Shown here: positions 21,934 through 37,247 of the stretch, piece after piece
How the letters are laid out: each line of letters begins with the position of its first letter
Position numbering within the stretch: position 1 is the first letter of the stretch
Assembly: GCA_037147415.1 (NCBI GenBank)
Contig: JBAWVF010000004.1
Coordinates: 1,112-65,111, forward strand
From: Rhodospirillaceae bacterium
GTDB taxonomy: Bacteria > Pseudomonadota > Alphaproteobacteria > Azospirillales > Azospirillaceae
DNA: 64,000 nucleotides
Direction of reading: 5' to 3'
Translations under genes and position numbers: made by a program
The notes under the pieces: model-generated
What the model was told of the DNA's origin: nothing
Seen by the model: only the letters and a program-made list of their open reading frames with translations
Database searches by the model: none

Positions 21934-23061
21934 ATGGTTAAGACGCTTTCGTTCGGTACGGTCCTTGTCGCGGGTGCTTTGCTGGCGGCCCCGGTTTCGG
22001 CTGAGCCCGCCGTCACCGTCGGTGCCATCGAGATTCTGTCCGGGCCGAGCGCCGCCTACGGCACCGCGATCAAGGCCGGGCTGGAACTGGCGTTGGCAGA
22101 GATCAATGCGGCCGGCGGTGTTCTCGGCGGCCGGAAGCTGGAGCTGGTGATCGAGGACTCGGCGGGCAACAAGGATCAGGCGGTCAATGCCGCGCGCCGG
22201 CTGATCGGACAGAACAAGGTGCCGGCCATCATCGGCCCGACCCTGTCCAACGAGATGTTCGCGGTCGGCCCGGTGACCAATGAGCGTAAGGTGGTCACCA
22301 TCGGCACCTCGAACACCGCCAAGGGCATTACCGATATCGGGCCTTATATTTTCCGGACTTCGCTGCCGGAAGCGGATGTGGTGCCGGTGACGCTGGCGGC
22401 GGCCCGCGACAAGTTCGGGGTCAAGACCATCGCGATGATGTACGCCAACGACGACGCCTTCAGCAAATCGGGTTTCGACTCGATGAAGGCGGCGGCGGAC
22501 AAGCTGGGCCTGACCATTGCCGCCATCGAGAGTTTTAGCGGCAAGGATACCGATTTCTCGGCTCAGCTGACCAAGATCAAGGGGCTGAAGGTCGATGCCA
22601 TCACGGTCTCGGCGCTGGTCGAGCCGACTTCGGGCGTGGTGTTGCAGGCCCGTCAACTCGGCATTCCCGCCAGCATCCGTTTTATCGGCGGCAACGGCGC
22701 CAATTCACCCAAGCTGGGCGAGATTGCGGGCGAAGCGGCCGATGGTTTGCTGGTCGGCAGCCCGTGGTTCATCGCCAAACCCGATCCGGCCAATCAGGCC
22801 TTCGTCGCCGGTTTTAACAAGAGCTATGGCAAAGATCCGGACCAATTCGCGGCTCAGGCCTATGATACCTTGCATATTTTGGCCAAGGCGATTGATCGGG
22901 CCGGCAACACCGACAGCGACAGTATCCGTGAATCCTTGTTGAAGACGTCTTATACCGGCGTGATCGGACCGTTCAGCTTCACCGCCGGCCGGGATCCGGC
23001 CTCGACCGAAGGCGTGGTGGTGTTGACCATGCAGGGCGGCAAGTTCCAGATTCTGAAGTAG
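21934..23061 (+). CDS. Branched-chain amino acid (LIV-type) ABC transporter substrate-binding protein
   Basis: A signal peptide is followed by VTVGAIEILSGPSAAYGTAIKAGLELALAEINAAGGVLGGRKLELVIEDSAGN, a typical LivK/LivJ-family N-lobe. Confidence 0.9.
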   Translation: MVKTLSFGTVLVAGALLAAPVSAEPAVTVGAIEILSGPSAAYGTAIKAGLELALAEINAAGGVLGGRKLELVIEDSAGNKDQAVNAARRLIGQNKVPAIIGPTLSNEMFAVGPVTNERKVVTIGTSNTAKGITDIGPYIFRTSLPEADVVPVTLAAARDKFGVKTIAMMYANDDAFSKSGFDSMKAAADKLGLTIAAIESFSGKDTDFSAQLTKIKGLKVDAITVSALVEPTSGVVLQARQLGIPASIRFIGGNGANSPKLGEIAGEAADGLLVGSPWFIAKPDPANQAFVAGFNKSYGKDPDQFAAQAYDTLHILAKAIDRAGNTDSDSIRESLLKTSYTGVIGPFSFTAGRDPASTEGVVVLTMQGGKFQILK

Positions 23062-23069
23062 CGGTTACG

Positions 23070-23951
23070 ATGCTGCTTCAGCAACTCGTCAACGGGCTGG
23101 TGTTGGGGTCAACCTATGCGCTGTTCGCGCTGGGTTTTACCCTGATCTTCGGTGTACTGCGCATTATCAACCTGACCTACGGCTTTTACTTTTCGGTTGG
23201 GGCCTTCGTTGCGCTATGGCTGGCGCGCTCGGTCGGGGCTTCGGTCTGGCTGGCCTTGCCCGGCGGCGCGCTGGCGGCCGGGTTGGTGGCGGTGGTGCTG
23301 GATAGCCTGCTGCTGACCCGGTTGCGCCATGCCAAGGCGGGAGAACTGTCCTCGCTGATGGTGACCTTGGGCGCGGTGCTGGCGCTCTATTCCGCGATGG
23401 CGGCGCTGTTGGGCACGGAAATCCGGCGCTTTCCCTTCGGCTTTGTCGGCTCGGCGGCGCTGGAGGCGGGCGGGGTTCGGCTGTCGCTGGTGCAGATTGT
23501 GATTGTCGGCACCGCGTTCACCCTGGCGGCGCTGTTGTTCCTGGTGCTGCGCTATAGCCGGCTTGGTTTGATGATCCGGGCGCTGGCCGAGAATGAAGAC
23601 GTCGCCCGCTTGATGGGCATCGATGTTGATGCCATGGTGGTTGCGGTTTCGTTTCTGTCGGGGGTTCTGGGCGGGACCGCCGGCGTGCTGCTCGGGCTGA
23701 ATTTCAACGCGATTCAGCCCTTCATGGGCGAGGCCATGATGCTGCGCGGCTTTGCCGTCATCATCATCGGCGGCTTGGGCGATGTTCGCGGCGCCCTGGT
23801 CGCCGGGGTGACGCTGGGCGTGCTGGAGGTGCTGACCGCAGGCTATGTCTCCTCCAACGCCAAGGAGGCGGTCGGCTTCGCGATTCTGGTGCTGACCTTG
23901 TGGCTGCGCCCGGTCGGTCTGTTCGGCCGCGCGGCCATAAAGCGCGCGTGA
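23070..23951 (+). CDS. livH: Branched-chain amino acid ABC transporter permease LivH-type
   Basis: MLLQQLVNGLVLGSTYALFALGFTLIFGV is a LivH N-terminus. The C-terminus LWLRPVGLFGRAAIKRA is the canonical LivH ending. Confidence 0.92.
   Translation: MLLQQLVNGLVLGSTYALFALGFTLIFGVLRIINLTYGFYFSVGAFVALWLARSVGASVWLALPGGALAAGLVAVVLDSLLLTRLRHAKAGELSSLMVTLGAVLALYSAMAALLGTEIRRFPFGFVGSAALEAGGVRLSLVQIVIVGTAFTLAALLFLVLRYSRLGLMIRALAENEDVARLMGIDVDAMVVAVSFLSGVLGGTAGVLLGLNFNAIQPFMGEAMMLRGFAVIIIGGLGDVRGALVAGVTLGVLEVLTAGYVSSNAKEAVGFAILVLTLWLRPVGLFGRAAIKRA
23858..23919. repeat. Direct repeat copy 1 (inside the livH 3' end)
   Basis: The 62 nt cgccaaggaggcggtcggcttcgcgattctggtgctgaccttgtggctgcgcccggtcggtc are identical to 24368-24429. 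Weaker similarity continues for about 10 nt (ttcggc). Confidence 0.9.
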
Positions 23952-24367
23952 AGCCGGTCTTGACTCGCCGCCCCCGTTCGCGGCAGACTGCCAAGCGGCC
24001 GAACCGAGCGTAACACCCGCCCGGCCCGGCCTGATCATTATCATCCCGACGACGAAAGACGACAATGACTGTCGCGACTCTTATCACGGGCGCGCGTTCA
24101 CGCACAGCCCCCCGTTGCAAACCGGACCCGCCTGATCGCGTCTCGGATAGCGTTCCCATGTGAACGCTGACTGAAGGTGCGCGGGCGGTTCCCTGTCTTG
24201 CGTCGTCACGTCACCGGAGCCTTGACAAAAAGATGGGGGCGACCGGAGCGGAACGTTGCGTGTGCGGGCGAACCCGGTTTCAGAGGGATCGGAAGTCGAA
24301 GGTGCGGTGCCCGTGAAGCCCTGCGCCGCCGCCCGTGCGCCGCCGATTCCCCCTTTCACCTGGGGCT

Positions 24368-24429
24368 CGCCAAGGAGGCGGTCGGCTTCGCGATTCTGGT
24401 GCTGACCTTGTGGCTGCGCCCGGTCGGTC
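24368..24429. repeat. Direct repeat copy 2 (ectopic copy of the livH 3' end)
   Basis: Perfect 62-nt match to 23858-23919, located 510 bp downstream of copy 1. Confidence 0.9.
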
Positions 24430-24500
24430 CATTCGGCGGACGCTTCTTCTCGACTGAAAAATGTCCATGGGCTAAAATCGAAACACCAGGTGAGGCATAG
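24368..24500 (+). pseudogene. Orphan livH 3'-end fragment (duplicated tail with divergent ending)
   Basis: It encodes KEAVGFAILVLTLWLRPVG, then a non-LivH tail (PFGGRFFSTEKCPWAKIETPGEA). No upstream LivH sequence is attached. Confidence 0.6.
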
Positions 24501-24512
24501 CCTGACCTGGTG
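24484..24512. other. Near-perfect palindromic hairpin upstream of the Abi-like gene
   Basis: The sequence is caccaggt-g-aggc-ata-gcct-g-acctggtg, located 78 nt upstream of the ATG at 24590. It has no T-run. It could be an operator, a transcription stop or an RNA element. Confidence 0.4.
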
Positions 24513-24589
24513 CTCTGGGAACTATGTTGGCGGCGCATAGCAAAGCCAGTGGGGCCGATCAACTGCTCAACCAAACAATAGGCGAGTGA

Positions 24590-25663
24590 ATGGCGGAAAG
24601 TCAAGTCCCATACCCCAACCATGCCTATCAGATCACCGCTCTGCGATCAGCGCTCTCCGAACCGAGATTTAAGGCCTATCTCGCGAAAGGCGGTTACGAC
24701 GAGCAGTACGCTCTGGCTCTGTATCTCTACAATGTCAGGGTTGCCAAAGCCTTTATGTTCCCGCTCGGGGTCGCGGAAGTCACATTGCGCAACGCGATTG
24801 ATAAGAGGTTTGTCGATGTCTACGACAAGAACTGGCACAGGGATCTGCGCGTTCGGGATTCGGTGCTGACCCCGGAGAGCTTGAACGCGCTCGACAAAGC
24901 CATCACTCGTGCCGGAAACAACGCCGACCACGGGCAGGTGGTCGCCGAGTTGACATTTGACTTCTGGTCAAACTTACTGCGGCCTGACTATGGCTCATTC
25001 TGGCGAACGAACCTCAACATCGTCTTTCCGAATATCCAGCGCGGCAGGTTGCGTCACGATGTTCAGTTAATGGTCAAGGAAATCAACGTCTTCCGCAATC
25101 GGGTCGCCCACCATGAACCGGTTTTAGACCGCAATATCACAGACATTCACGCAAAAATAGTCGAGATCGTGTCGCTGCGATGCAAAGAAACAGCAGCTTG
25201 GCTCAAGCATCACTCCACAGTGAGTGCGGCTATCCGGACTCGGCCACACGGACCGGCCGCCGGATTTATGTCACTGCGCGACCGGATGGCTCGAGACTTC
25301 GTAAAGGTTCTGGGAACGACCAAACTTGACAGCCTTGCCAGCAGCTTCGATCATACCAAGCAAGCTGCCGTTCGCATAGACAGCGTTGGCGCACCGACGG
25401 CAGCTTTTGGCCCCCTTGAACTGGTCAGCTTCGTATCCCTTGACCTCCAAAAGAACGGTGGCATTACAATGCTTGCCGAGCGAACTGTTGATGATCTTTT
25501 CACCGCGATCAACGTGGCGGGAAGCTGGATTCCGATGGATGAAAGCACGCCGCTGGCCGAAGCCATCGATGCCCTGAAGCAGCAAGGAACGAACATCATC
25601 GTCGGAGTGGATGCCCAGGGTAGAGCCGTTGGGGTGCTGACGCGCGCTTGGCGCCGGTACTGA
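24590..25663 (+). CDS. Abi_2 (AbiD/AbiF-like, HEPN) domain protein with C-terminal CBS pair
   Basis: Abi_2 hallmarks are LSEPRFKAYL, ALALYLYNVRVAKAF, EVTLRNAI and AELTFDFWSNLL. INVFRNRVAHHEPV carries the HEPN Rx4H motif (R169..H174, nt 25094-25111). Residues about 225-357 read as two CBS repeats, for example RTVDDLFTAINVAGSWIPMDESTPLAEAIDALKQQGTNIIVGVDAQGRAVGVLTRA. Confidence 0.85.
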   Translation: MAESQVPYPNHAYQITALRSALSEPRFKAYLAKGGYDEQYALALYLYNVRVAKAFMFPLGVAEVTLRNAIDKRFVDVYDKNWHRDLRVRDSVLTPESLNALDKAITRAGNNADHGQVVAELTFDFWSNLLRPDYGSFWRTNLNIVFPNIQRGRLRHDVQLMVKEINVFRNRVAHHEPVLDRNITDIHAKIVEIVSLRCKETAAWLKHHSTVSAAIRTRPHGPAAGFMSLRDRMARDFVKVLGTTKLDSLASSFDHTKQAAVRIDSVGAPTAAFGPLELVSFVSLDLQKNGGITMLAERTVDDLFTAINVAGSWIPMDESTPLAEAIDALKQQGTNIIVGVDAQGRAVGVLTRAWRRY

Positions 25664-25729
25664 GGCCAATCATTCAGACAATGTCCGCTTTCCGACGCCG
25701 CCGTTGGTCTCGTCAATAGCCGCCACGGA

Positions 25730-25754
25730 CCCGAACCGGACCGTCCGGTTCGGG
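25730..25754 (+). terminator. Strong hairpin downstream of the Abi-like gene
   Basis: cccgaaccgga-ccg-tccggttcggg forms a perfect 11-bp stem 67 nt after the stop. There is no T-run. Confidence 0.4.
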
Positions 25755-25862
25755 GACCCGCTGGAGCAGCGGATTTCAAACCGAGACACGACTCTGATGG
25801 CCGGAGACTCGCAAGTCGAGCGGAAGTAGGGTATTCTGAGCTGGAACGACGGAGAAGACCCC

Positions 25863-26075
25863 ATGTCCGACGACGAACTGAAGGCGATGCTGGTTAAGCT
25901 GGTCGCCAAGATCGATGAGGAAGCGGCCAGGAATGCCGACTTCCGCGCCGGTGTGGACAGTCAATTGGCCTGTATCAACGCCCGCCTCACCGGCATCGAC
26001 AAGCGCCAGGATGACCAGAACGCCATTCTTGCCGCAATGATTCCGGTCAAAATTGCCGCTGTCGGTGGACGATAG
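25863..26075 (+). CDS. Small hypothetical protein (70 aa), predicted coiled coil
   Basis: The ATG is preceded by GGAGAAG with a 5-nt spacer. The sequence is helical and charged (MSDDELKAMLVKLVAKIDEEAARNADFRAGVDSQLACINARLTGIDKRQDDQN). The stop lies 5 nt before the livM ATG. No known family is recognised. Confidence 0.45.
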   Translation: MSDDELKAMLVKLVAKIDEEAARNADFRAGVDSQLACINARLTGIDKRQDDQNAILAAMIPVKIAAVGGR

Positions 26076-26080
26076 GGGCT

Positions 26081-26923
26081 ATGGCGGCTTGGCTGGATAA
26101 TTTTTTCTTTACCTACGAGACGCTGATTCATTCCTTGGGCGTCAACGGCTTGCTGGCGCTGTCGATGTATTGCGTGCTCGCGCTCGGGCAATTGTCGCTG
26201 GGGCAGGCGGCGTTCATGGGCATCGGCGCCTATACCGGGGCGTTGCTGACACTGAAGGCCGGGCTGCCATTCTGGTCGGTGCTGCCGCTGGCGACACTGG
26301 CTCCGGCGCTGGTGGCGCTGATTATCGGCGGGCCGACCTTGCGTCTCAGCGGGGTTTATCTGGCGATTTCGACCATTGCACTGGGGGAGGTGCTCCGTAT
26401 CTTCTACATCAACGCGGAGTCGATCACCGGCGGCGCGCTGGGTCTGTCGGGAATTCCGCGGCTGGCCGGTCCGGGGCTGATTTACGGGCTGTTGCTGGTA
26501 GCCATGCTCGGGTTTTGGCTGGTGGGTCGCTCGCGCATCGGCCGGGCGATGGAGGCCATGCGCGAAGACGAGGTTGCGGCCGGGGTGATGGGGATCAACC
26601 CGCCGCTGTATAAGCTGGGCGCGCTGGTGGTCTCTGCGATGCTGGCCGGGCTGGCCGGCTGTCTGTCGGCGCATGGCAACAGCTTCATCGGTCCGAACGA
26701 GTACGGGTTCGAGACCGCGGTCACCATCCTCAGCTTCGCCCTGCTCGGCGGTATCGGCTCGCCGGTGGCGCCCGTGCTCGGGGCGATCGTGCTGACCGCG
26801 CTGCCCGAACTGTTGCGGCCGTTGCAGGATTTCCGCCTGGTGCTGCACGGGCTGATCATCGTCATGGCGGTGCTGTTTCTGCCCGGCGGTATTCTGCCGT
26901 GGCGCTTGAGGCGGGCGCCATGA
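26081..26923 (+). CDS. livM: Branched-chain amino acid ABC transporter permease LivM-type
   Basis: Polytopic membrane protein. GQLSLGQAAFMGIGAYTGALL is the LivM motif. The stop overlaps the livG start. Confidence 0.9.
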   Translation: MAAWLDNFFFTYETLIHSLGVNGLLALSMYCVLALGQLSLGQAAFMGIGAYTGALLTLKAGLPFWSVLPLATLAPALVALIIGGPTLRLSGVYLAISTIALGEVLRIFYINAESITGGALGLSGIPRLAGPGLIYGLLLVAMLGFWLVGRSRIGRAMEAMREDEVAAGVMGINPPLYKLGALVVSAMLAGLAGCLSAHGNSFIGPNEYGFETAVTILSFALLGGIGSPVAPVLGAIVLTALPELLRPLQDFRLVLHGLIIVMAVLFLPGGILPWRLRRAP

Positions 26924-27687
26924 CGGTGTTGCTGCAAACCCGGTGCCTGACCATGCGGTTTCAAGGCTTGCTCGCGGTCGATGCGGTCGAACTGGAGGTC
27001 ACGGCCGGCGAGGTCCACGGCCTGATCGGACCCAATGGCGCCGGCAAGACCACGGTCTTTAATTTAATCTCCGGTTTGCTGCACCCGACCTCCGGCGGGG
27101 TGGTGCTTGACGGGCACGATGTTTCCGGCTTGCCGTCTCATGCGCGGACCCGGCTCGGGCTGGCGCGCACCTTTCAAAACATCCGGATGTTCGCCGACAT
27201 GACGGTGCTGGAAAACGTCATGACCGGCATGCACTCCCGGCTGAAGGCTTCGGTGGCGGCGGTGCTGCTGCATTTGCCCGGTGTGCGGGCGGAGGAGCGG
27301 GCGGCCAAGGCCCAGGCGCTGGAGTTGCTGGAATTCGTGGCGCTGGCCGATAAGGCGGGGCTGCGCTCCGGTGATTTGTCTTATGGCGAACAAAGGCGGC
27401 TGGAGATCGCGCGGGCGCTGGCGGCGGAGCCGCGGTTATTGCTGCTGGACGAGCCGGCGGCCGGGATGAACCCGGCGGAGACCGACGAGCTGGCGCTGTT
27501 GTTAAAGCGGCTCGGGCCGCTCGGGGTGACTTTGTTGGTGATCGAGCATGACATGGGCTTCATTCTGGATTTGTGCGACCGGATCACCGTACTGAATTTC
27601 GGCTGCAAGATCGCCGAGGGCCGACCGAACGAGATTCGCAACGACCCGGCCGTGATCGAGGCTTATCTGGGGACGCACCTGCAATGA
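26920..27687 (+). CDS. livG: Branched-chain amino acid ABC transporter ATP-binding protein LivG-type
   Basis: Supporting motifs are GLIGPNGAGKTT, LSYGEQRRLEIARAL and LLLLDEPAAGMNP. ATGA overlaps occur with both livM and livF. Confidence 0.92.
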   Translation: MTVLLQTRCLTMRFQGLLAVDAVELEVTAGEVHGLIGPNGAGKTTVFNLISGLLHPTSGGVVLDGHDVSGLPSHARTRLGLARTFQNIRMFADMTVLENVMTGMHSRLKASVAAVLLHLPGVRAEERAAKAQALELLEFVALADKAGLRSGDLSYGEQRRLEIARALAAEPRLLLLDEPAAGMNPAETDELALLLKRLGPLGVTLLVIEHDMGFILDLCDRITVLNFGCKIAEGRPNEIRNDPAVIEAYLGTHLQ

Positions 27688-28415
27688 CCGCACCGACGCC
27701 GTTATTGCAGGTCTCCGGTCTTCGCTTGGGCTATGGCCGGATCATGGCGGTCAAGGGCATCGATCTCGAGGTGCCGGCGGGCGGGGTGGTTTGTCTGATC
27801 GGGGCCAACGGTGCCGGCAAGACCACGACCATGCGCGGCTTGTCCGGGCTGTTGCGGGCCATCGACGGCCGGATCTGCTTCGACGGCACCGATATCACCA
27901 AGAGCGCGGCGCATCGCATCGCTCGTCTGGGGATCCGCCACGTTCCGGAAGGACGGCAGGTTTTCGCCGAAATGTCGGTGGCGGAAAACCTGGCGCTCGG
28001 CGGTTTGCAGGCGCCAAGCTCCCGCGTGTATCAGGAGCGGCGGGAGCGGGTGCTGGAGCGCTTTCCCCTGTTGCGTCAACGGCTGGCGCAATCGGCCGGT
28101 TTGCTCTCGGGCGGCGAACAGCAAATGCTGGCGTTGGCACGGGCGTTGATGGGGGCGCCGCGCTTGTTGTTGCTGGACGAGCCGAGCATGGGGCTGGCGC
28201 CGCTGTTCGTCGAGGAAATCTTCCGCATTATCACCGCGTTGAAGCGCGAGGGCACCACCATTCTGCTGGTTGAACAGAACGCCCGGGTCGCGCTGGAAAT
28301 TGCCGACCATGCCTATGTTCTGGAAAGCGGACGCATTGCCTTGCACGGGCCGGGACCGGAGATTATGCATAACCCACAAGTCGTTGCCGCCTATCTCGGC
28401 GGTTCGAACAAATAA
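27684..28415 (+). CDS. livF: Branched-chain amino acid ABC transporter ATP-binding protein LivF-type
   Basis: Supporting motifs are LIGANGAGKTTT, LSGGEQQMLALARAL and LLLLDEPSMGLAP. The start was trimmed from ORF position 27573 to the ATG overlapping the livG stop. Confidence 0.92.
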   Translation: MTAPTPLLQVSGLRLGYGRIMAVKGIDLEVPAGGVVCLIGANGAGKTTTMRGLSGLLRAIDGRICFDGTDITKSAAHRIARLGIRHVPEGRQVFAEMSVAENLALGGLQAPSSRVYQERRERVLERFPLLRQRLAQSAGLLSGGEQQMLALARALMGAPRLLLLDEPSMGLAPLFVEEIFRIITALKREGTTILLVEQNARVALEIADHAYVLESGRIALHGPGPEIMHNPQVVAAYLGGSNK

Positions 28416-28438
28416 ACGGAAAGGGAGAGAAACAGTCC

Positions 28439-29611
28439 ATGGGCACACAAAAATCACCGCGCACCGCGACGGTTGCCGGCGTACTCCTTGCCGCGTCTTT
28501 GCTCGGGAGCGGGGCGGCAACGGCGGCCGAGCCGGCCGGTCCGATCAAGATCGGGTCTTTCCTGTCGGTGACCGGCGGCGCCTCTTTCCTGGGCGATCCG
28601 GAAAAGAAGACGCTGGAGTTGGAGGTCGCCGAGATCAACAAGCGCGGCGGTGTCCATGGCCGTAAACTCGAGCTGATCACTTATGATGACACCGGCGCCG
28701 CCGACAAGGCGGCCAGCTTCGTCAAGCGGTTGATCGAAAGCGACGGCGTCGATGCGATCGTCGGCGGCAGCACCACCGCCACCACCATGGCGGCGATTCC
28801 GCTGGTGGAAAAGTCCCGGGTGCCGTTCATCTCGCTGGCCGGCGCGGTCGGGATTGTCGAGCCGGTTAAGAAATGGGTGTTCAAGACCCCGCATACCGAC
28901 CGGCTGGCCGCAGAAAAAGTTTTCGAGGATATGCGCAAGCGCGGCATCAAGCGGATCGGCCTGATTTCGGAGGACGCCGGTTTCGGCAAGTCCGGGCGCG
29001 AGCAATCCCTGCTGGTGGCCAAGAATTTCGGCATCGAGATCGTGGCTGACGAGGTTTATTCACCGAAAGACCCCGACACCACGGCGCAATTGACCAAGAT
29101 CAGCCACACGCCGGGGGTTGAGGCTTTATTTAACTTCGGTTTCGGGCAGGGACCGGCGGTGGTGACCCGCAATTACCGCCAACTCGGTTTGACCATGCCG
29201 TTCTATCAGTCGCACGGGGTTGCCTCGAAGGACTTCATCAAGCTGGTCGGCGCGGCCGGAGAGGGCATCCGTCTGCCGGCGACCGGGCTGGCCGTGGTCG
29301 ACCAATTGCCGGCCGGGGATCCGCAAAAGCCGGTGGTGACCATGTATATGGAAGTCTATCGCGATACCTATAAGGCCGATGCCTCGACCTTTGCCGGCTA
29401 TGCTTATGATGGCATCCACATTCTTGAGGAAGCGCTGTTCCACGCTACGGGCACCGACAAGGAGCGGGTGCGCGAGGAAATCGAACGGACGCGCGGCTTT
29501 GTCGGCACGACCGGACTTTACACCATGTCGCCGACCGACCATAACGGGCTGGCGCCGAACTCCTTCCATATGGTCGAAATCCGGAAGGGCGATTGGGCGT
29601 TGCTTGATTAA
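28439..29611 (+). CDS. LIV-type ABC transporter substrate-binding protein (second operon)
   Basis: A signal peptide is followed by IKIGSFLSVTGGASFLGDPEKKTLELEVAEINKRGGVHGRKLELITYDD. GGGAGAG lies upstream of the ATG. Confidence 0.9.
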   Translation: MGTQKSPRTATVAGVLLAASLLGSGAATAAEPAGPIKIGSFLSVTGGASFLGDPEKKTLELEVAEINKRGGVHGRKLELITYDDTGAADKAASFVKRLIESDGVDAIVGGSTTATTMAAIPLVEKSRVPFISLAGAVGIVEPVKKWVFKTPHTDRLAAEKVFEDMRKRGIKRIGLISEDAGFGKSGREQSLLVAKNFGIEIVADEVYSPKDPDTTAQLTKISHTPGVEALFNFGFGQGPAVVTRNYRQLGLTMPFYQSHGVASKDFIKLVGAAGEGIRLPATGLAVVDQLPAGDPQKPVVTMYMEVYRDTYKADASTFAGYAYDGIHILEEALFHATGTDKERVREEIERTRGFVGTTGLYTMSPTDHNGLAPNSFHMVEIRKGDWALLD

Positions 29612-29629
29612 CCGCGGGCCGGGCCGGGA

Positions 29630-30505
29630 ATGTCGTCGCAGTTTCTCCAATATCTGTTTTCCGGGGTTACGGTCGGGGCGATTTATGCGCTGGCCGGGCT
29701 CGGGTTTACGATCATCTACAATGCCAGCCATGTGATTAATTTCGCTCAGGGCGAGTTTATCATGATCGGCGCCATGACCACGGTGTCTTTGACCGGGCTC
29801 GGTGTGCCGCTGGTGGTGGCGGTGCCGCTGGCGGTGCTGGTGACCATGGCGGTCGGGGTGGCGGTGGCCCGCTTCGCCATCCTGCCGGCGCGCGAGGCGT
29901 CCGTGGTGACCCTGATCATCATTACCATCGGCGTCTCGATGATTCTGCGCGGGACGGCGCAGGTGTTGTGGGGCAAGGGCTACCATGCCCTGCCGTCCTT
30001 CAGCGGCGACACTCCCTTTGTCGTGGCGGGCGCGGCGCTGCTGCCGCAAAGCCTGTGGGTGCTCGGCTGTTCCGTGGTGGTGATTGCCGGGCTCGGCTGG
30101 TTTTTCGGCCGCACCCTGTACGGCAAGGCGATGCTGGCGACTTCGTGCAACCGGCTGGCGGCGCGTCTGGTCGGGATCGAGGTCTCAGGCGTGCTGCTGG
30201 CGGCGTTCGGGCTGGCGGCACTGCTCGGCGCGGTCGGCGGCATCGTGATGGCGCCGATCACCTTCACCGCAGCCGATTCCGGTATCATGCTCGGGCTGAA
30301 GGGCTTTGCCGCGGCGGCGCTCGGCGGGCTCGGCAATGGCGCGGGTGCGGTGCTTGGCGGGCTGATCCTGGGCATTTCCGAGGCGATGAGCGCGGGCTAT
30401 CTGTCCTCGTCCTATAAGGAGGCGACCGCCTTCGTCATCATCCTGCTGGTGCTGTTCTTCCGGCCGAACGGCTTGTTCGGACGTGCGGGAGCGGAACGGG
30501 TATGA
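29630..30505 (+). CDS. LivH-type permease (second operon)
   Basis: N-terminus is FLQYLFSGVTVGAIYALAGLGFTIIYNAS. C-terminus is FFRPNGLFGRAGAERV. Confidence 0.9.
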   Translation: MSSQFLQYLFSGVTVGAIYALAGLGFTIIYNASHVINFAQGEFIMIGAMTTVSLTGLGVPLVVAVPLAVLVTMAVGVAVARFAILPAREASVVTLIIITIGVSMILRGTAQVLWGKGYHALPSFSGDTPFVVAGAALLPQSLWVLGCSVVVIAGLGWFFGRTLYGKAMLATSCNRLAARLVGIEVSGVLLAAFGLAALLGAVGGIVMAPITFTAADSGIMLGLKGFAAAALGGLGNGAGAVLGGLILGISEAMSAGYLSSSYKEATAFVIILLVLFFRPNGLFGRAGAERV

Positions 30506-31442
30506 CCGAGTTCGGGACGCGCCATGGCGGGGTGATCGCGCTGGCGGTCATGGTCGCGCTGCTGCCGCTCGGGCTGCCCGACCTTTATACCTATGACATT
30601 GCGATCAATGCCGGCTTCAACGCCATCGTGTGCGTCGGCCTGAACCTGTTGATCGGCTATGCCGGTCAGATCAGCCTGGGCCACGCCGGTTTTTTCGGGC
30701 TCGGCGCATATGCTTCGGGCATTCTGACCACCCGCTACGGCTGGCCCCCGCTGGCGGCGCTGGCGGCCGGAGCGGTCGGGGTGGCGGCGCTGTCCTGGCT
30801 GGTGGCGCGGGCGGTGCTTGGGCTCAAGGGCCATTTCCTGGCGATGGCGACCATGGGGGTCGGCATTATCGTTGCGATCGTGCTCAACACGGAATCGGGG
30901 CTGACCGGCGGCTCGGACGGGCTGATGGTCGGCGATTTCTCGGTGTTCGGTTTGGTCTTGCGCGGTGAGCGCGCCTGGTACTGGGTGGTCGGCGGTCTGC
31001 TGGTGCTGGTGATCGCCGCCGCCGGTAATCTGATCGACTCGCCGGTCGGGCGCGCCTTGCGTGCGCTCCACGGCAGCGAGATCGCGGCCGAGGTCGCCGG
31101 CATCGATACCGCACGCACCAAAATCATGGTGTTCGTGCTGTCGGCCGTGCTGGCGGCGATTGTCGGCAGTCTTTACGTTCACTATGCCGGCATGATCACG
31201 CCGAGCCGGGCCGGCTTCATGAAATCGATCGAGTTGGTGACCATGGTCGTGTTCGGCGGCATGGCCTCCAGTTTCGGCGCGCTGGTCGGGGCGGTGTTTC
31301 TGACCGTGCTGCCGCAGGTATTGACCGCGTTCGAGGATTACGAGACGATTATTCTGGGTGTGATCATGGTCGGCACCATGATTTTCATGCCGCGCGGACT
31401 GGTGGTGACCCTGCGCGACCTGCTGCGGATCGGGAGACGGCC

Positions 31443-31446
<4 letters not shown>
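30502..31446 (+). CDS. LivM-type permease (second operon)
   Basis: The GQISLGHAGFFGLGAYASGIL motif is present. A 4-nt overlap occurs with the neighbour on each side. Confidence 0.9.
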
Positions 31447-32201
<755 letters not shown>

Positions 32202-32204
32202 GCG

Positions 32205-32909
32205 ATGCTGTTGGACATTTCCGATCTGACCAGCCATTACGGCCGCCTTCAGGCGCTGCGGGGGATTTCGCTGACGATCGGGCAAGGCGAGCTGATCGCC
32301 CTGATCGGGGCCAACGGCGCCGGCAAGACCTCGCTGTTGCAGGCGATATCGGGCGTGCGTGCGGTCAGCGGCGGGCGCATGCGGTTCGAGGGTCGCGATC
32401 TCGCCGGCTTGGCGCCCGAGCGGCGGGTCGATCTCGGCATCGTCCAAGTGCCCGAGGGCCGGCAGGTGTTCGCATCGCTCAGCGTCGAGGATAATCTGAG
32501 GCTGGGCGCCTATCGTCGCCGCGACCGTGAAATCGCGGCCGATCTTGCCCGCATGATCGAGCTGTTTCCGGTGCTGGGGCGCTATCGAAACCTTACCGCC
32601 GGCAGTCTGTCGGGCGGGCAACAACAAATGCTGGCGCTGGCCCGCGGTTTGATGGCGCGGCCCCGGCTGCTGCTGCTCGACGAGCCGAGCATGGGGTTAT
32701 CACCGGTACTGGTCGCCGAAGTCTTTCAAGTCATCGCGGATTTGAGGCGGGCCGGCACCACCATTTTCCTGGTCGAGCAAAACGCCCGCTCGGCGCTGGC
32801 GATTGCCGACCGCGCCTATGTCATCGAAACCGGTGCCGTCGTGCTGTCGGGCAGTGGTGCCGGGTTACTGGCCGACGACCGCGTGCGTACCGCTTATCTG
32901 GGGTTGTGA
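32205..32909 (+). CDS. LivF-type ATP-binding protein (second operon)
   Basis: Supporting motifs are LIGANGAGKTS, LSGGQQQMLALARGL and LLLLDEPSMGLSP. Confidence 0.9.
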   Translation: MLLDISDLTSHYGRLQALRGISLTIGQGELIALIGANGAGKTSLLQAISGVRAVSGGRMRFEGRDLAGLAPERRVDLGIVQVPEGRQVFASLSVEDNLRLGAYRRRDREIAADLARMIELFPVLGRYRNLTAGSLSGGQQQMLALARGLMARPRLLLLDEPSMGLSPVLVAEVFQVIADLRRAGTTIFLVEQNARSALAIADRAYVIETGAVVLSGSGAGLLADDRVRTAYLGL

Positions 32910-36972: not shown

Positions 36973-37247
36973 GGGAGGCGTCTCGTCAGCTGGAAGAGGG
37001 GGCGGCTGGAAAAGGAAGCGGCTGGAAAGGGCATGACTGTCATAAAGGCTCGCCCCCTGGGCCGCTGTCAAGCGTTCAGGTGGCTTCGAAGGCGGTCGGC
37101 GGTATATCGTCGAAATGATCGGCCCGCACCGCCGCAAGACGGTCCCGACCCGGCCGGGCGATTGTTACGCTCGGTTCCGGTCACTAAATAGCTTGCCGTG
37201 AACCGGGCCGGCTGTCAGACCGGTGTTTGAGCCAATCCGGAGGGATC

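What the first reader, a model, noticed from the sequence alone, without database searches (positions are those of the whole stretch)
23952..26080. About 2.1 kb cargo insertion splitting the livH-livM junction of a LIV-type ABC operon
In the second LIV-type operon in this window the H/M/G genes overlap by 4 nt (30502/30505 and 31443/31446). In the first operon M/G/F do the same (26920/26923 and 27684/27687). The first operon's livH stop (23951) and livM start (26081) are separated by 2129 bp.

That gap contains a GC-rich non-coding stretch, an ectopic copy of the livH tail, the Abi_2-CBS gene, a strong hairpin and a 70-aa ORF. No integrase, transposase or tRNA is present. The insertion mechanism and the way livMGF stays expressed are therefore both unexplained. 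The arrangement implies that the defence-like cargo is transcriptionally embedded in a nutrient-uptake operon.
Basis: partly seen in the sequence, partly recalled or inferred. Interest (0 to 1): 0.7.

Follow-up and report, generated by a model that had tools for sequence, protein, structure and literature searches.

The report
Toxin gene cassette wedged into transporter operon
A foreign piece of DNA with no recombinase gene sits exactly between two normally touching genes of an amino-acid transporter operon; it carries an AbiF-like RNase toxin gene fused to a nucleotide-sensor domain, with its own promoter and a conserved folded RNA leader, which makes it a tidy example of gene capture rather than a new kind of system.

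Summary
livH ends at 23951 and livM starts at 26081. In 86 of 99 orthologous livKHMGF operons these two genes are 30 nt or less apart, mostly TGAATG, and none of the 99 carries this cargo.

The gap is a mosaic of four pieces:
- 416 bp of non-coding, host-like DNA.
- A 62-nt exact copy of the livH tail.
- A portable 1.28-kb module also found in unrelated genomic contexts elsewhere at 80-91% DNA identity. It contains a promoter-like site, a 95-nt covarying leader RNA that is not in Rfam, and a 357-aa HEPN (Abi_2/AbiF-like) protein with a CBS pair.
- A hairpin and a 70-aa ORF of a small family; two of its four homologues lie on one phage-like contig.

No recombinase gene, terminal inverted repeats or cargo-flanking att sites are present. 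The junctions show microhomology: CGGTC, and GGGGCT duplicated at 24362 and 26075. The best explanation is illegitimate, microhomology-mediated insertion, possibly in two steps.

By analogy with AbiF-AbiFr, the module is probably an RNA-neutralised toxin. livMGF is probably expressed by read-through or from the module's promoter, with orf70-livM translational coupling.

This is a new variant of known kinds and of moderate interest.

The parts
21934..23061 (+). livK, the periplasmic binding protein and first gene of LIV-type operon 1
   Evidence: Pfam Peripla_BP_6 at 3e-72.
23070..23951 (+). livH permease, intact. Its tail, ...LRPVGLFGRAAIKRA*, is the native one.
   Evidence: Pfam BPD_transp_2 at 1e-37. 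The tail matches relatives, which end ...GLFGRAxxxRA*.
23858..23927 (+). R1, the native copy of the repeated livH tail segment
   Evidence: the repeat finder family D3.
23952..24367 (.). Region (a): 416 bp of GC-rich non-coding DNA starting directly after the livH TGA. Its first 76 nt resemble another intergenic region of the same genome. It ends in GGGGCT (24362-24367).
   Evidence: No codon periodicity. RNA fold z = -1.2. Positions 23954-24029 are 77% identical to the reverse complement of 37149-37223, which lies upstream of a Peptidase_M17 gene.
24368..24437 (+). R2, the ectopic copy of the livH tail. It is exact over 24368-24429 and then merges into the abi module at the microhomology CGGTC(..)TTCGGC.
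24427..25703 (+). Portable abi module: promoter, leader, gene and about 40 nt of 3' flank. It is shared with unrelated loci. Here its left end is cut short by at least about 20 nt that L074, L075 and L076 share, and by up to about 55 nt relative to L074/L075 on looser similarity.
   Evidence: blastn gives 91% identity to L074 over 24427-25703 and 80% to L075 over 24425-25688. The R. centenum leader matches 24425-24615.
24450..24478 (+). Sigma-70-like promoter candidate, TCGACT-17-TAAAAT, inside the conserved module
   Evidence: The position is conserved in the leader alignment.
24475..24569 (+). Conserved structured leader RNA with two helices, P1 and P2. It is a putative AbiFr-like antitoxin or cis-regulator.
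   Evidence: The covariance model scores 99.9 bits here. Across the two searches it gave 21 hits of 88-110 bits, all directly upstream of abi-CBS genes, and none in 70 background loci. Twenty-two pairs are 99.4% paired and four show compensatory changes. It is absent from Rfam.
24590..25663 (+). Abi_2/AbiF-like HEPN RNase (residues about 10-215, invariant R169-N-R-V-A-H174) fused to a CBS pair (residues about 230-352)
25729..25755 (+). Perfect 11-bp hairpin followed by a 6-bp hairpin. No U-tract follows, so it is not a canonical terminator.
25863..26075 (+). orf70, a small protein belonging to a rare family. Two of its four homologues lie on one phage-like contig. Its stop codon lies 5 nt before the livM ATG.
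   Evidence: Four homologues at 52-68% identity. Two of them lie on contig L126, which carries TerL_nuclease, AAA_25 and HTH genes. DNA homology is confined to the ORF.
26075..26080 (+). GGGGCT directly before the livM ATG, identical to the last 6 nt of region (a)
   Evidence: The probability of a terminal match of 6 nt or more at two fixed positions is about 4e-4.
26081..28415 (+). livM (26081-26923), livG (26920-27687) and livF (27684-28415), all intact with 4-nt overlaps

Best explanation
A mosaic of DNA with no recombinase gene has been inserted exactly between the livH stop codon and the livM start codon, by illegitimate recombination that used microhomology. It is not the product of a dedicated mobile-element enzyme.

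**What was inserted.** The functional cargo is a self-contained 1.28-kb module that also moves between defence- and toxin-antitoxin-rich spots in other Alphaproteobacteria, on plasmids and on viral contigs. The module comprises its own promoter, a roughly 95-nt structured leader RNA, and an AbiF-like HEPN RNase fused to a CBS (Bateman) nucleotide-sensor pair. A hairpin and a 70-aa ORF of a small family (two of its four homologues lie on one phage-like contig) follow it.

**Most likely history (inferred).**
1. The lineage first had the 416-bp spacer (a) between livH and livM.
2. One complex event then inserted 24368-26080 just before the livM ATG.
3. That event was either serial template switching or end joining with a captured local fragment. 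It copied 62 nt of the nearby livH tail, jumped into the foreign module at CGGTC, and returned to the chromosome at GGGGCT.

**How it most likely works (by analogy with AbiF-AbiFr and RCd22).** The leader RNA binds and neutralises the RNase and/or limits its expression. The CBS pair tunes activity to an adenosine-type ligand. Phage infection or stress releases the RNase, giving abortive infection or growth arrest.

**How livMGF stays expressed (inferred).** Everything in the gap is co-oriented and there is no intrinsic terminator, so transcripts from the livK promoter and/or the module's promoter run through. livM translation can couple to orf70, because the orf70 stop lies 5 nt upstream of the livM ATG with an AGGGG Shine-Dalgarno-like sequence.
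For: **It is an insertion.**
- 86 of 99 orthologous operons have 30 nt or less between livH and livM, mostly TGAATG, and none has abi or orf70.
- GC3 is 0.65 for abi and 0.71 for orf70, against 0.80-0.84 for the host liv genes.

**The module is portable.**
- It shares 80-91% DNA identity over 24425/7-25688/703 with loci where it sits next to Shedu (SduA_C), HEPN_Toprim_N or IS genes.
- Other homologues lie beside AbiEii, AbiEi, PLD, DISARM DrmC, MqsA and PIN genes, and on seven IMG/VR contigs.

**No dedicated mobility machinery.**
- There is no integrase, transposase or tRNA gene in the gap, and none among the ORFs checked within about 15 kb.
- No terminal inverted repeats link the ends of the insert.
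- The livH-tail repeats bracket only 448 bp, not the cargo.
- The left end of the module is cut at least about 20 nt inside the sequence shared by L074, L075 and L076.

**Microhomologies.**
- CGGTC with a further TTCGGC at the R2|module joint.
- GGGGCT at both 24362-24367 and 26075-26080, with chance about 4e-4.

**Protein.**
- RNRVAH is invariant in 37 homologues.
- Pfam Abi_2 is hit by 34 of 37 family members, and PADLOC PD-T4-5 scores 6e-14.
- The model of the N-terminal domain has one outstanding PDB match, 8vz6 (PbAbiF bound to ncRNA), at E 0.035 and probability 1.00; the next hit is at E 1.5.
- The C-terminal part matches CBS pairs with TM up to 0.75.

**Leader.**

**Precedent for RNA antitoxins of Abi_2 proteins.** PMC12373285 and PMC12737573.

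**Expression.** There is no + strand terminator-like site within 23952-26080, and there is a promoter-like site at 24450-24478.
Against: - No close relative was found. The best LivH match is 75% identical, so neither an empty site in the same species nor an intermediate state (livH-(a)-livM) has been seen. The order and number of events are inferred from junction sequence only.
- The donor sequences are unknown, so microhomology lengths are upper bounds. The (a)|R2 joint shares at most 2 nt.
- The origin of region (a) is unknown apart from a 77%-identical 76-nt stretch elsewhere in the window.
- The window protein itself is below Pfam gathering scores for both Abi_2 and CBS, and the structural match to PbAbiF is modest (TM 0.49).
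- The leader does not match the abiF motif RF03085. Two of its four covarying pairs rest on single sequences.
- There are no expression, toxicity or phage data, and the source is a metagenome-assembled genome.
Confidence: 0.6

Rival explanations
1. This is a decayed site-specific integrative element. The two livH-tail copies would be attL and attR of an element that targets the 3' end of livH and restores the gene. That would resemble the integrase-less CIMEs and tandem accretion described for ICEs (from memory). The abi-orf70 segment would be a second, accreted element whose far att site has eroded.
For: A 62-nt exact direct repeat involves the 3' end of a gene, and the gene is kept intact. 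This is the classic footprint of integrase-mediated insertion.
Against: - There is no integrase in the gap, and none among the ORFs checked in the surrounding roughly 30 kb.
- The repeats enclose only 448 bp of non-coding DNA, and the cargo lies outside them.
- No third copy or remnant of the repeat lies near livM.
- The copy joined to the gene body carries the native tail, whereas integration normally displaces the native tail to the far end.
- The R2|module joint falls inside sequence that is continuous in other abi loci.
Confidence: 0.12
2. This is an assembly artefact. The metagenome assembler may have mis-joined strain variants or unrelated contigs across the 62-nt repeat, so the tandem arrangement does not exist in any cell.
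For: The source is a MAG. The Logan k=31 contig breaks inside the repeat, which shows that the repeat has two continuations in the reads.
Against: - Two NCBI assemblies give the identical 2.4-kb sequence.
- The abi-orf70-livM join is unique sequence and is seen independently in the Logan contig.
- Region (a) links R1's continuation to R2's upstream flank, so the only path through the graph that uses all edges is the tandem one.
- A 62-nt repeat is shorter than typical reads.
Confidence: 0.05
3. The whole 2129 bp arrived as a single block by homologous recombination. The mosaic would have been assembled stepwise in another strain at the same livH|livM junction, then transferred with livH and livM as flanking homology arms, in the way that hotspot islands are exchanged.
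For: - The livH|livM junction repeatedly hosts other cargo in orthologous operons. Five of 99 have 1.2-1.8-kb inserts carrying an AraC/GyrI-like gene, a cupin gene, or two unknown ORFs, and eight have 44-312-nt elements.
- The ectopic copy is 100% identical to the resident livH over 62 nt, which implies a conspecific or local origin.
Against: This only moves the illegitimate events to a donor strain. No donor or sibling allele was found, and nothing in the flanks distinguishes it from in-situ formation.
Confidence: 0.2
4. The arrangement is ancestral or functional. The abi-CBS gene and orf70 would be long-standing, co-regulated members of this LIV operon, for example a nucleotide- or amino-acid-responsive regulator of uptake, rather than recent cargo.
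For: - All genes are co-oriented and tightly joined to livM.
- CBS domains sense metabolites.
- One other homologue (L135) also lies between LIV-type operons.
Against: - The cargo is absent from all 99 orthologous operons.
- The LIV genes of L135 are only 28-43% identical paralogues.
- GC3 marks the cargo as foreign.
- Homologues sit in defence, toxin-antitoxin, plasmid or viral contexts and never with orf70.
- The 62-nt repeat shows zero divergence.
Confidence: 0.03

Closest known systems
AbiF-AbiFr / AbiFCd-RCd22 type III-like toxin-antitoxin systems (Abi_2 family; PbAbiF-ncRNA structure 8VZ6; proposed ancestors of Cas13)
   Same: - A HEPN RNase of the Abi_2 family with an invariant RNxxxH motif.
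- PbAbiF is the best structural match.
- A conserved structured RNA is encoded immediately upstream on the same strand.
- It is a single-gene module found on plasmids, prophage-like contigs and defence islands.
   Different: - A C-terminal CBS pair is added.
- The leader has a different sequence and shape (two helices, invariant GCCAGUGGGGCC) and does not match RF03085.
- No terminator follows the leader.
- Neutralisation and toxicity are untested.
- Here it sits inside a nutrient-uptake operon.
PD-T4-5 (E. coli plasmid-borne single-gene abortive-infection defence, a distant AbiF/D relative; PMC9519451)
   Same: It is the best PADLOC profile hit (6e-14) over the HEPN core, and it is a single-gene, mobile system.
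   Different: The match covers only about 80 residues. PD-T4-5 has no CBS pair. No defence phenotype is known for the alphaproteobacterial clade.
HEPN-CBS fusions noted by Anantharaman et al. 2013 (PMC3710099)
   Same: A catalytically competent Abi2/Swt1-type HEPN domain is fused to CBS domains. The authors proposed that these couple nucleotide sensing to RNA degradation.
   Different: That paper described the architecture only. The conserved leader RNA and this 357-aa alphaproteobacterial clade were not described there, as far as the text searched shows.
Microhomology-mediated illegitimate recombination: homology-facilitated illegitimate recombination, or MMBIR/FoSTeS-type serial template switching (from general knowledge)
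   Same: - No recombinase gene is present.
- The joints carry 5-6 nt of GC-rich microhomology.
- A short templated copy of nearby sequence (the livH tail) is inserted at the joint.
- No chromosomal sequence is lost.
   Different: The mechanism is inferred from sequence only. One joint has 2 nt of microhomology or less, and the donor is unknown.
Defence or cargo hotspots between conserved core genes
   Same: The same intergenic position in orthologous operons holds different cargo in different genomes (5 of 99 with inserts of 1.2 kb or more, 8 of 99 with small elements).
   Different: The frequency is low. The cargo elsewhere is not defence-related (AraC/GyrI-like, cupin). Insertions also occur at other junctions of these operons. 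There are no flanking mobility genes.

Membership tests
Abi_2 / AbiD-AbiF HEPN family (Pfam PF07751) | Significant match to the family profile | tested here: inconclusive
   The window protein scores 20.6 bits (E 6e-4) against a gathering score of 25.6. However, 34 of 37 close homologues hit Abi_2 at E <= 1e-3, the best at 2.7e-7. PADLOC PD-T4-5 scores 6e-14, and tblastn finds 553 plasmid records, many of them annotated 'Abi family protein'.
Abi_2 / AbiD-AbiF HEPN family (Pfam PF07751) | HEPN catalytic motif Rx4-6H (typically RNxxxH) conserved in an all-alpha domain | tested here: met
   R169-N170-R-V-A-H174 is invariant in 37 sequences. The N-terminal 215 residues are all-helical at pLDDT of about 90.
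Abi_2 / AbiD-AbiF HEPN family (Pfam PF07751) | Fold similarity to a solved AbiF | tested here: met
   8vz6_A (PbAbiF dimer bound to ncRNA) is the single outstanding Foldseek hit, at E 0.035, probability 1.00 and TMq 0.49; the next hit is at E 1.5. The similarity is modest.
AbiF-AbiFr type III-like toxin-antitoxin | Conserved structured ncRNA encoded directly upstream of the toxin gene on the same strand | tested here: met
   A 95-nt leader gives 21 covariance-model hits of 88-110 bits, all immediately upstream of abi-CBS genes. It is 99.4% paired and four pairs show compensatory changes. Weak hits of similar shape lie 60-180 nt upstream of Abi_2 genes that lack CBS.
AbiF-AbiFr type III-like toxin-antitoxin | The RNA belongs to the abiF motif (Rfam RF03085) | tested here: not met
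   There is no RF03085 match at gathering or at E <= 5 in 23900-26100.
AbiF-AbiFr type III-like toxin-antitoxin | The protein is toxic and the RNA neutralises it by direct binding | not testable with these tools
   This needs expression assays. It has been shown for the C. difficile and Prevotellaceae homologues only (PMC12373285, PMC12737573).
CBS pair (Bateman module) | Two CBS motifs forming the beta-alpha-beta-beta-alpha pair fold | tested here: met
   Residues of about 230-352 match CBS pairs, including MJ0922, MJ0100 and AMPK gamma, with TMt 0.6-0.75 and E of 3e-5 to 7e-4. The Pfam CBS match is below threshold for the window protein.
Site-specific integrative element (integrase plus att repeats) | A tyrosine or serine recombinase gene in or next to the element | tested here: not met
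   No family hits for the other ORFs in the gap. None among the neighbouring genes checked within about 15 kb.
Site-specific integrative element (integrase plus att repeats) | Direct att repeats that bracket the cargo | tested here: not met
   The 62-nt repeats bracket only 23928-24367. The abi gene and orf70 lie outside them.
IS / transposon / MITE | Transposase gene and/or terminal inverted repeats with a target-site duplication | tested here: not met
   There is no transposase. No inverted repeat pairs the ends of the insert. A 6-nt direct repeat, GGGGCT, flanks 24368-26074, but it has no inverted repeats and its left 'end' is a copy of livH.
Defence island / hotspot | Clustering with other defence or mobile-element genes | tested here: not met
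   In the window the checked neighbours are glnA, histidine kinases, LIV operons and pepA. Homologues elsewhere do sit beside Shedu, AbiE, PLD, DISARM and toxin-antitoxin genes.

The most novel reading that the evidence does not exclude
The abi-CBS module may be a distinct, nucleotide-sensing branch of the AbiF-ncRNA systems, the proposed Cas13 ancestors, with a new class of leader RNA that acts as antitoxin or ligand- or protein-responsive switch. In this genome its promoter and leader would have become the effective control region of livMGF. Branched-chain amino-acid uptake would then be wired to the activation state of an abortive-infection toxin, and the 62-nt repeats would allow reversible loss of the 510-bp segment.
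Probability: 0.1. Interest if true: 0.7.

Novelty: new variant of a known kind. Interest (0 to 1): 0.4.

Why it matters
The locus is a clean natural example of a toxin or defence gene entering a housekeeping operon without any mobile-element enzyme. It lands precisely between a stop codon and a start codon and leaves both flanking genes intact. The junction sequences preserve the footprints of the event, namely the microhomologies and a templated copy of nearby DNA.

It also brings to light a well-populated alphaproteobacterial clade of AbiF-like HEPN-CBS proteins: 277 homologues, including copies on Agrobacterium Ti plasmids. Each of the loci examined has a conserved, covarying upstream RNA that is not in Rfam. 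Because AbiF-ncRNA pairs are now regarded as the ancestors of Cas13, a branch that adds a small-molecule sensor domain and a different RNA partner is a useful comparison point and is easy to test experimentally.

Tried and rejected
- **Rfam.** The gathering search of the whole window and the E <= 5 search of the gap gave only chance-level hits.
- **tRNA scan.** None found.
- **Close relatives.** I looked for an empty or intermediate site in the same species. Genome and metagenome scans with LivH gave at most 75% and 67% identity. Exact-protein look-ups for LivH, LivM and Abi returned only contigs that carry the insert.
- **Phage database.** blastn with the insert found no match.
- **BFVD fold search.** Nothing useful.
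- **PDB sequence searches.** Only weak CBS hits.
- **Region (a) as a decayed gene.** There is no codon periodicity and stops occur in all frames. Its RNA fold is not exceptional.
- **Region (a) as phage DNA contiguous with orf70.** The only similarity is a marginal 45-nt stretch (E 0.02), which I judged unreliable.
- **The hairpin as an intrinsic terminator.** No U-tract follows it.
- **A link between abi-CBS and LIV operons.** In L135 the gene lies between two LIV-type operons, but these are only distant paralogues, so I treated it as coincidence.
- **orf70 as a conserved partner of abi-CBS.** It is absent from all other abi loci examined.
- **Similarity between this insert and the inserts in other orthologous operons.** None.
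Full report
**1. The observation**

The + strand carries livK (21934-23061), livH (23070-23951), a 2129-bp gap, then livM (26081-26923), livG and livF. The downstream genes overlap by 4 nt (ATGA) at 26920/26923 and 27684/27687. The second LIV operon has the same overlaps at 30502/30505 and 31443/31446.

- A GC-rich stretch, 23952-24367, at 65-68% GC.
- A second copy of the livH tail, 24368-24437, matching 23858-23927 at 97% over 70 nt with 62 nt exact.
- A 357-aa ORF, 24590-25663, with weak Abi_2 and CBS Pfam hits and a PADLOC PD-T4-5 hit at 6e-14.
- An 11-bp perfect hairpin near 25729-25755.
- A 70-aa ORF, 25863-26075.

There is no tRNA and no Rfam family in the whole window. No recombinase gene lies in the gap, and none was found among the larger ORFs checked by Pfam within about 15 kb on either side. 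Those neighbours are glnA, hybrid histidine kinases, an MCP, the second LIV operon, pepA and similar genes.

**2. Is it real, and is it an insertion?**

The window comes from a Rhodospirillaceae MAG. The same 2.4 kb is 100% identical in a second NCBI metagenome assembly. An independent Logan contig runs abi-orf70-livM and begins exactly 30 nt (k-1 for k=31) before the end of the 62-nt exact repeat, as expected for a true repeat with two continuations in the reads.

I collected 119 loci encoding LivH relatives from species-representative genomes and JGI metagenomes. Ninety-nine orthologous livKHMGF operons (LivH 59-75% identical) span the junction.
- The median livH-livM distance is 2 nt.
- 86 have 30 nt or less, most often TGAATG.
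- None contains abi or orf70.

The livH copy attached to the gene body ends ...GLFGRAAIKRA*, like its relatives (...GLFGRAxxxRA*). It is therefore the native tail and the downstream copy is the ectopic one.

Host liv genes have GC3 of 0.80-0.84, abi has 0.65 and orf70 has 0.71.

One limit remains. No close relative (better than 75% LivH identity) exists in the collections searched. Exact-protein look-ups found only insert-bearing contigs. A same-species empty site has therefore not been seen.

**3. Anatomy: a mosaic of four pieces**

*(a) 23952-24367.* This 416-bp stretch has no codon periodicity (0.70/0.65/0.63), stops in all frames, and an unremarkable RNA fold. Its first 76 nt are 77% identical to the reverse complement of 37149-37223, the region upstream of a Peptidase_M17 gene in the same window. 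It therefore looks like host-type intergenic DNA.

*R2, 24368-24429(37).* This is the ectopic livH tail.

*The abi module, about 24427-25703.* blastn shows 91% identity to L074 over 24427-25703, 80% identity to L075 over 24425-25688, and a 79% match of 24425-24615 to the leader of the Rhodospirillum centenum copy. In those loci the module lies beside Shedu (SduA_C), HEPN_Toprim_N, and an IS that has split the gene from its leader. Other homologues sit next to AbiEii, AbiEi, PLD-family, DISARM DrmC, MqsA-like and PIN genes. Copies occur on Agrobacterium Ti, Rhizobium and Microvirga plasmids and on seven IMG/VR contigs. None is in a liv operon orthologous to this one, and none has orf70.

*(d) 25704-26080.* This holds the hairpin and orf70. 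orf70 has four homologues at 52-68% identity. Two of them lie on one phage-like contig with TerL_nuclease, AAA_25 and HTH genes. Homology is confined to the ORF.

**4. Junctions and mechanism of insertion**

- **No transposon or att signature.** No inverted repeat pairs the ends of the insert, and the 62-nt direct repeats enclose only 448 bp of non-coding DNA, not the cargo.
- **R2|module joint.** It reads CCCGGTCGGTC|CATTCGGCGG. The livH tail reads CCCGGTCGGTC|TGTTCGGCCG. Other abi loci read ...GCAGCGGTC|CATTCGGCGG. The two partners therefore share CGGTC and, two bases further on, TTCGGC.
- **Non-canonical break.** L074, L075 and L076 share about 20 nt of sequence further left, and L074 and L075 resemble each other more loosely for about 55 nt. 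The window's module is therefore broken at a non-canonical point.
- **GGGGCT duplication.** The last 6 nt of region (a), GGGGCT at 24362-24367, are identical to the 6 nt directly before the livM ATG (26075-26080). A terminal match of 6 nt or more at two fixed positions has a probability of about 4e-4, estimated from the window's own sequence.

The simplest reading, which is inferred, is that (a) once abutted livM as a spacer. Eight of the 99 orthologous operons have 44-312-nt elements at this position. A single complex event would then have inserted 24368-26080. The nascent or broken end copied 62 nt of the nearby livH tail, switched into foreign DNA at CGGTC, and rejoined the chromosome at GGGGCT. 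This is the pattern expected from microhomology-mediated template switching, or from end joining with a captured local fragment.

I cannot exclude that the mosaic was built in a sibling strain and then transferred by homologous recombination through livH and livM.

An integrase/att model fits poorly. There is no integrase, the cargo lies outside the repeats, there is no third repeat, and the native tail is on the wrong side.

**5. What the cargo is**

The protein family has 277 detectable homologues, nearly all about 357 aa and mostly alphaproteobacterial. In a 37-sequence alignment R169-N-R-V-A-H174, the HEPN RNxxxH motif, is invariant, as is the C-terminal RRY. Thirty-four of the 37 hit Pfam Abi_2.

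The AlphaFold model has pLDDT 88.6. It shows an all-helical N-terminal domain and a C-terminal alpha/beta domain.
- The C-terminal part matches CBS pairs (MJ0922, MJ0100, AMPK gamma and others) with TM up to 0.75.
- Modelled alone (pLDDT 90.2), the N-terminal domain has one outstanding PDB hit, 8vz6, 'PbAbiF dimer bound to ncRNA', at E 0.035 and probability 1.00. The next hit is at E 1.5.

PD-T4-5, the PADLOC match, is a plasmid-borne distant AbiF/D relative that gives abortive-infection defence against T4 (PMC9519451). HEPN-CBS fusions were noted in 2013 as possible nucleotide-responsive RNases (PMC3710099).

**6. The leader RNA**

The roughly 115 nt upstream of the start codon are conserved at the DNA level even against plasmid copies whose proteins are only about 50% identical. 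A sigma-70-like site, TCGACT-17-TAAAAT at 24450-24478, precedes it.

Sixteen leaders align with an invariant GCCAGUGGGGCC and two helices.
- RNAalifold predicts 22 pairs, four of them with compensatory changes.
- 99.4% of cells are paired, against 46% or less when partners are slid.
- The covariation score is 0.123 against 0.070 in shuffles, with 0 of 500 shuffles reaching the observed value.

A covariance model found 21 matches of 88-110 bits across two searches. All lie on the sense strand directly upstream of abi-CBS genes; the window's match is 24475-24569. Nothing turned up in about 0.9 Mb of liv background loci.

It is not in Rfam and does not match the abiF motif RF03085. Weak hits of similar shape (A-rich lead, long hairpin, second helix) lie 60-180 nt upstream of several Abi_2 genes that lack CBS.

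Published work shows that Abi_2/AbiF RNases are neutralised and down-regulated by a cis-encoded upstream ncRNA: RCd22 with two abiF motifs in C. difficile, and AbiFr in the PbAbiF structure. These pairs are proposed as the ancestors of Cas13 (PMC12373285, PMC12737573). By analogy, the window's module is most likely an RNA-neutralised HEPN toxin with an added CBS sensor. That step is inferred, not shown.

**7. How livMGF can still be expressed (inferred)**

All elements are co-oriented. The scan finds no + strand terminator-like site between 23952 and 26080, and the hairpins are not followed by a U-tract. The module supplies a promoter-like site 1.6 kb upstream of livM. The orf70 stop codon is 5 nt from the livM ATG, with an AGGGG Shine-Dalgarno-like sequence, which allows translational coupling. 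The 640 nt of untranslated RNA between livH and abi could be subject to Rho-dependent polarity, which would make the internal promoter important. This is speculation.

**8. Verdict**

The mechanism is best explained by illegitimate, microhomology-mediated capture of a portable AbiF-like HEPN-CBS module. The module has its own promoter and a previously uncatalogued leader RNA, and a small ORF with some phage-associated homologues came with it.

Nothing here is categorically new. AbiF-ncRNA systems, HEPN-CBS fusions and recombinase-free gene capture are all known. The particular combination, the precise stop|start placement inside a nutrient operon, and the distinct leader RNA make it a new variant of moderate interest.

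Noticed in passing
window 24475-24569; L074 1964-2058, L075 7873-7979, L127-L143 and L148 (and 101 coordinates): A roughly 95-nt conserved, covarying RNA motif (helices P1 and P2, invariant GCCAGUGGGGCC) lies immediately upstream of every abi-CBS gene examined, including copies on Agrobacterium Ti plasmids and IMG/VR contigs. It is not in Rfam 15.
   Followed up: yes
L155 1319-1405, L165 1348-1442, L176 1348-1442, L158 1363-1455: Weak covariance-model hits (10-19 bits) of the same overall shape lie 60-180 nt upstream of Abi_2 genes that lack a CBS pair (about 30% identity). This hints at a wider, highly divergent class of Abi_2-associated leader RNAs.
   Followed up: partly
L039 4421-4634; L100 3800-4013; L102 1399-1612; L103 5883-6096; L108 2070-2381: A 214-nt (312-nt in L108) GC-rich element with long internal inverted repeats sits exactly at the livH|livM junction in several acetobacterial or metagenomic operons. 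It looks like a MITE- or REP-like element.
   Followed up: partly
L105 5164-6361 (identical to L107 1294-2491): Two tightly packed ORFs of 182 and 215 aa with no Pfam family fill the livH|livM junction. The first starts 4 nt after the livH stop and the second ends 3 nt before the livM start. This is another operon-embedded cassette of unknown function.
   Followed up: partly
L053 949-2754; L069 8881-10203; L110 3043-4482: Related MAGs carry 1.3-1.8-kb inserts at the same junction with different cargo: an AraC/GyrI-like regulator in L053 and a cupin in L069 and L110. All share a 63-aa coiled-coil-like ORF on the opposite strand.
   Followed up: partly
L076 6557-9068 (Rhodospirillum centenum CP000613): An IS (DDE_Tnp_1 transposase) is inserted about 10 codons into the abi-CBS gene and separates it from its promoter and leader. 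This may be a natural inactivation of the toxin gene.
   Followed up: partly
window 23954-24029 and 37149-37223 (reverse strand): A 76-nt stretch at the start of the insert is 77% identical to the region upstream of a Peptidase_M17 (pepA-like) gene, including an exact 15-mer, GAACCGAGCGTAACA. This may be a repeated promoter or leader element of this genome.
   Followed up: partly
L135 2127-4716 and L136: A 61%-identical abi-CBS gene, flanked by MqsA-like and PIN genes, lies between two other LIV-type ABC operons. Those operons are only 28-43% identical to the window's, so this is probably coincidence given how many LIV operons these genomes carry.
   Followed up: yes
L126 (JADFXL010000066.1), P0122 and P0124: Two paralogues of orf70 lie on one 13.5-kb phage-like contig. 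The 3' half of the gene is highly conserved at the DNA level with the window copy.
   Followed up: partly
window 21934-32909: Two complete LIV-type livKHMGF operons lie head to tail only 23 nt apart, downstream of glnA and two large hybrid histidine kinases. This looks like a nitrogen or amino-acid uptake neighbourhood.
   Followed up: no
window 24590-25663, C-terminus: The last three residues, R-R-Y, and several C-terminal glycines are invariant across the abi-CBS family, although the extreme C-terminus is modelled with low confidence. The tail may be functionally important.
   Followed up: no
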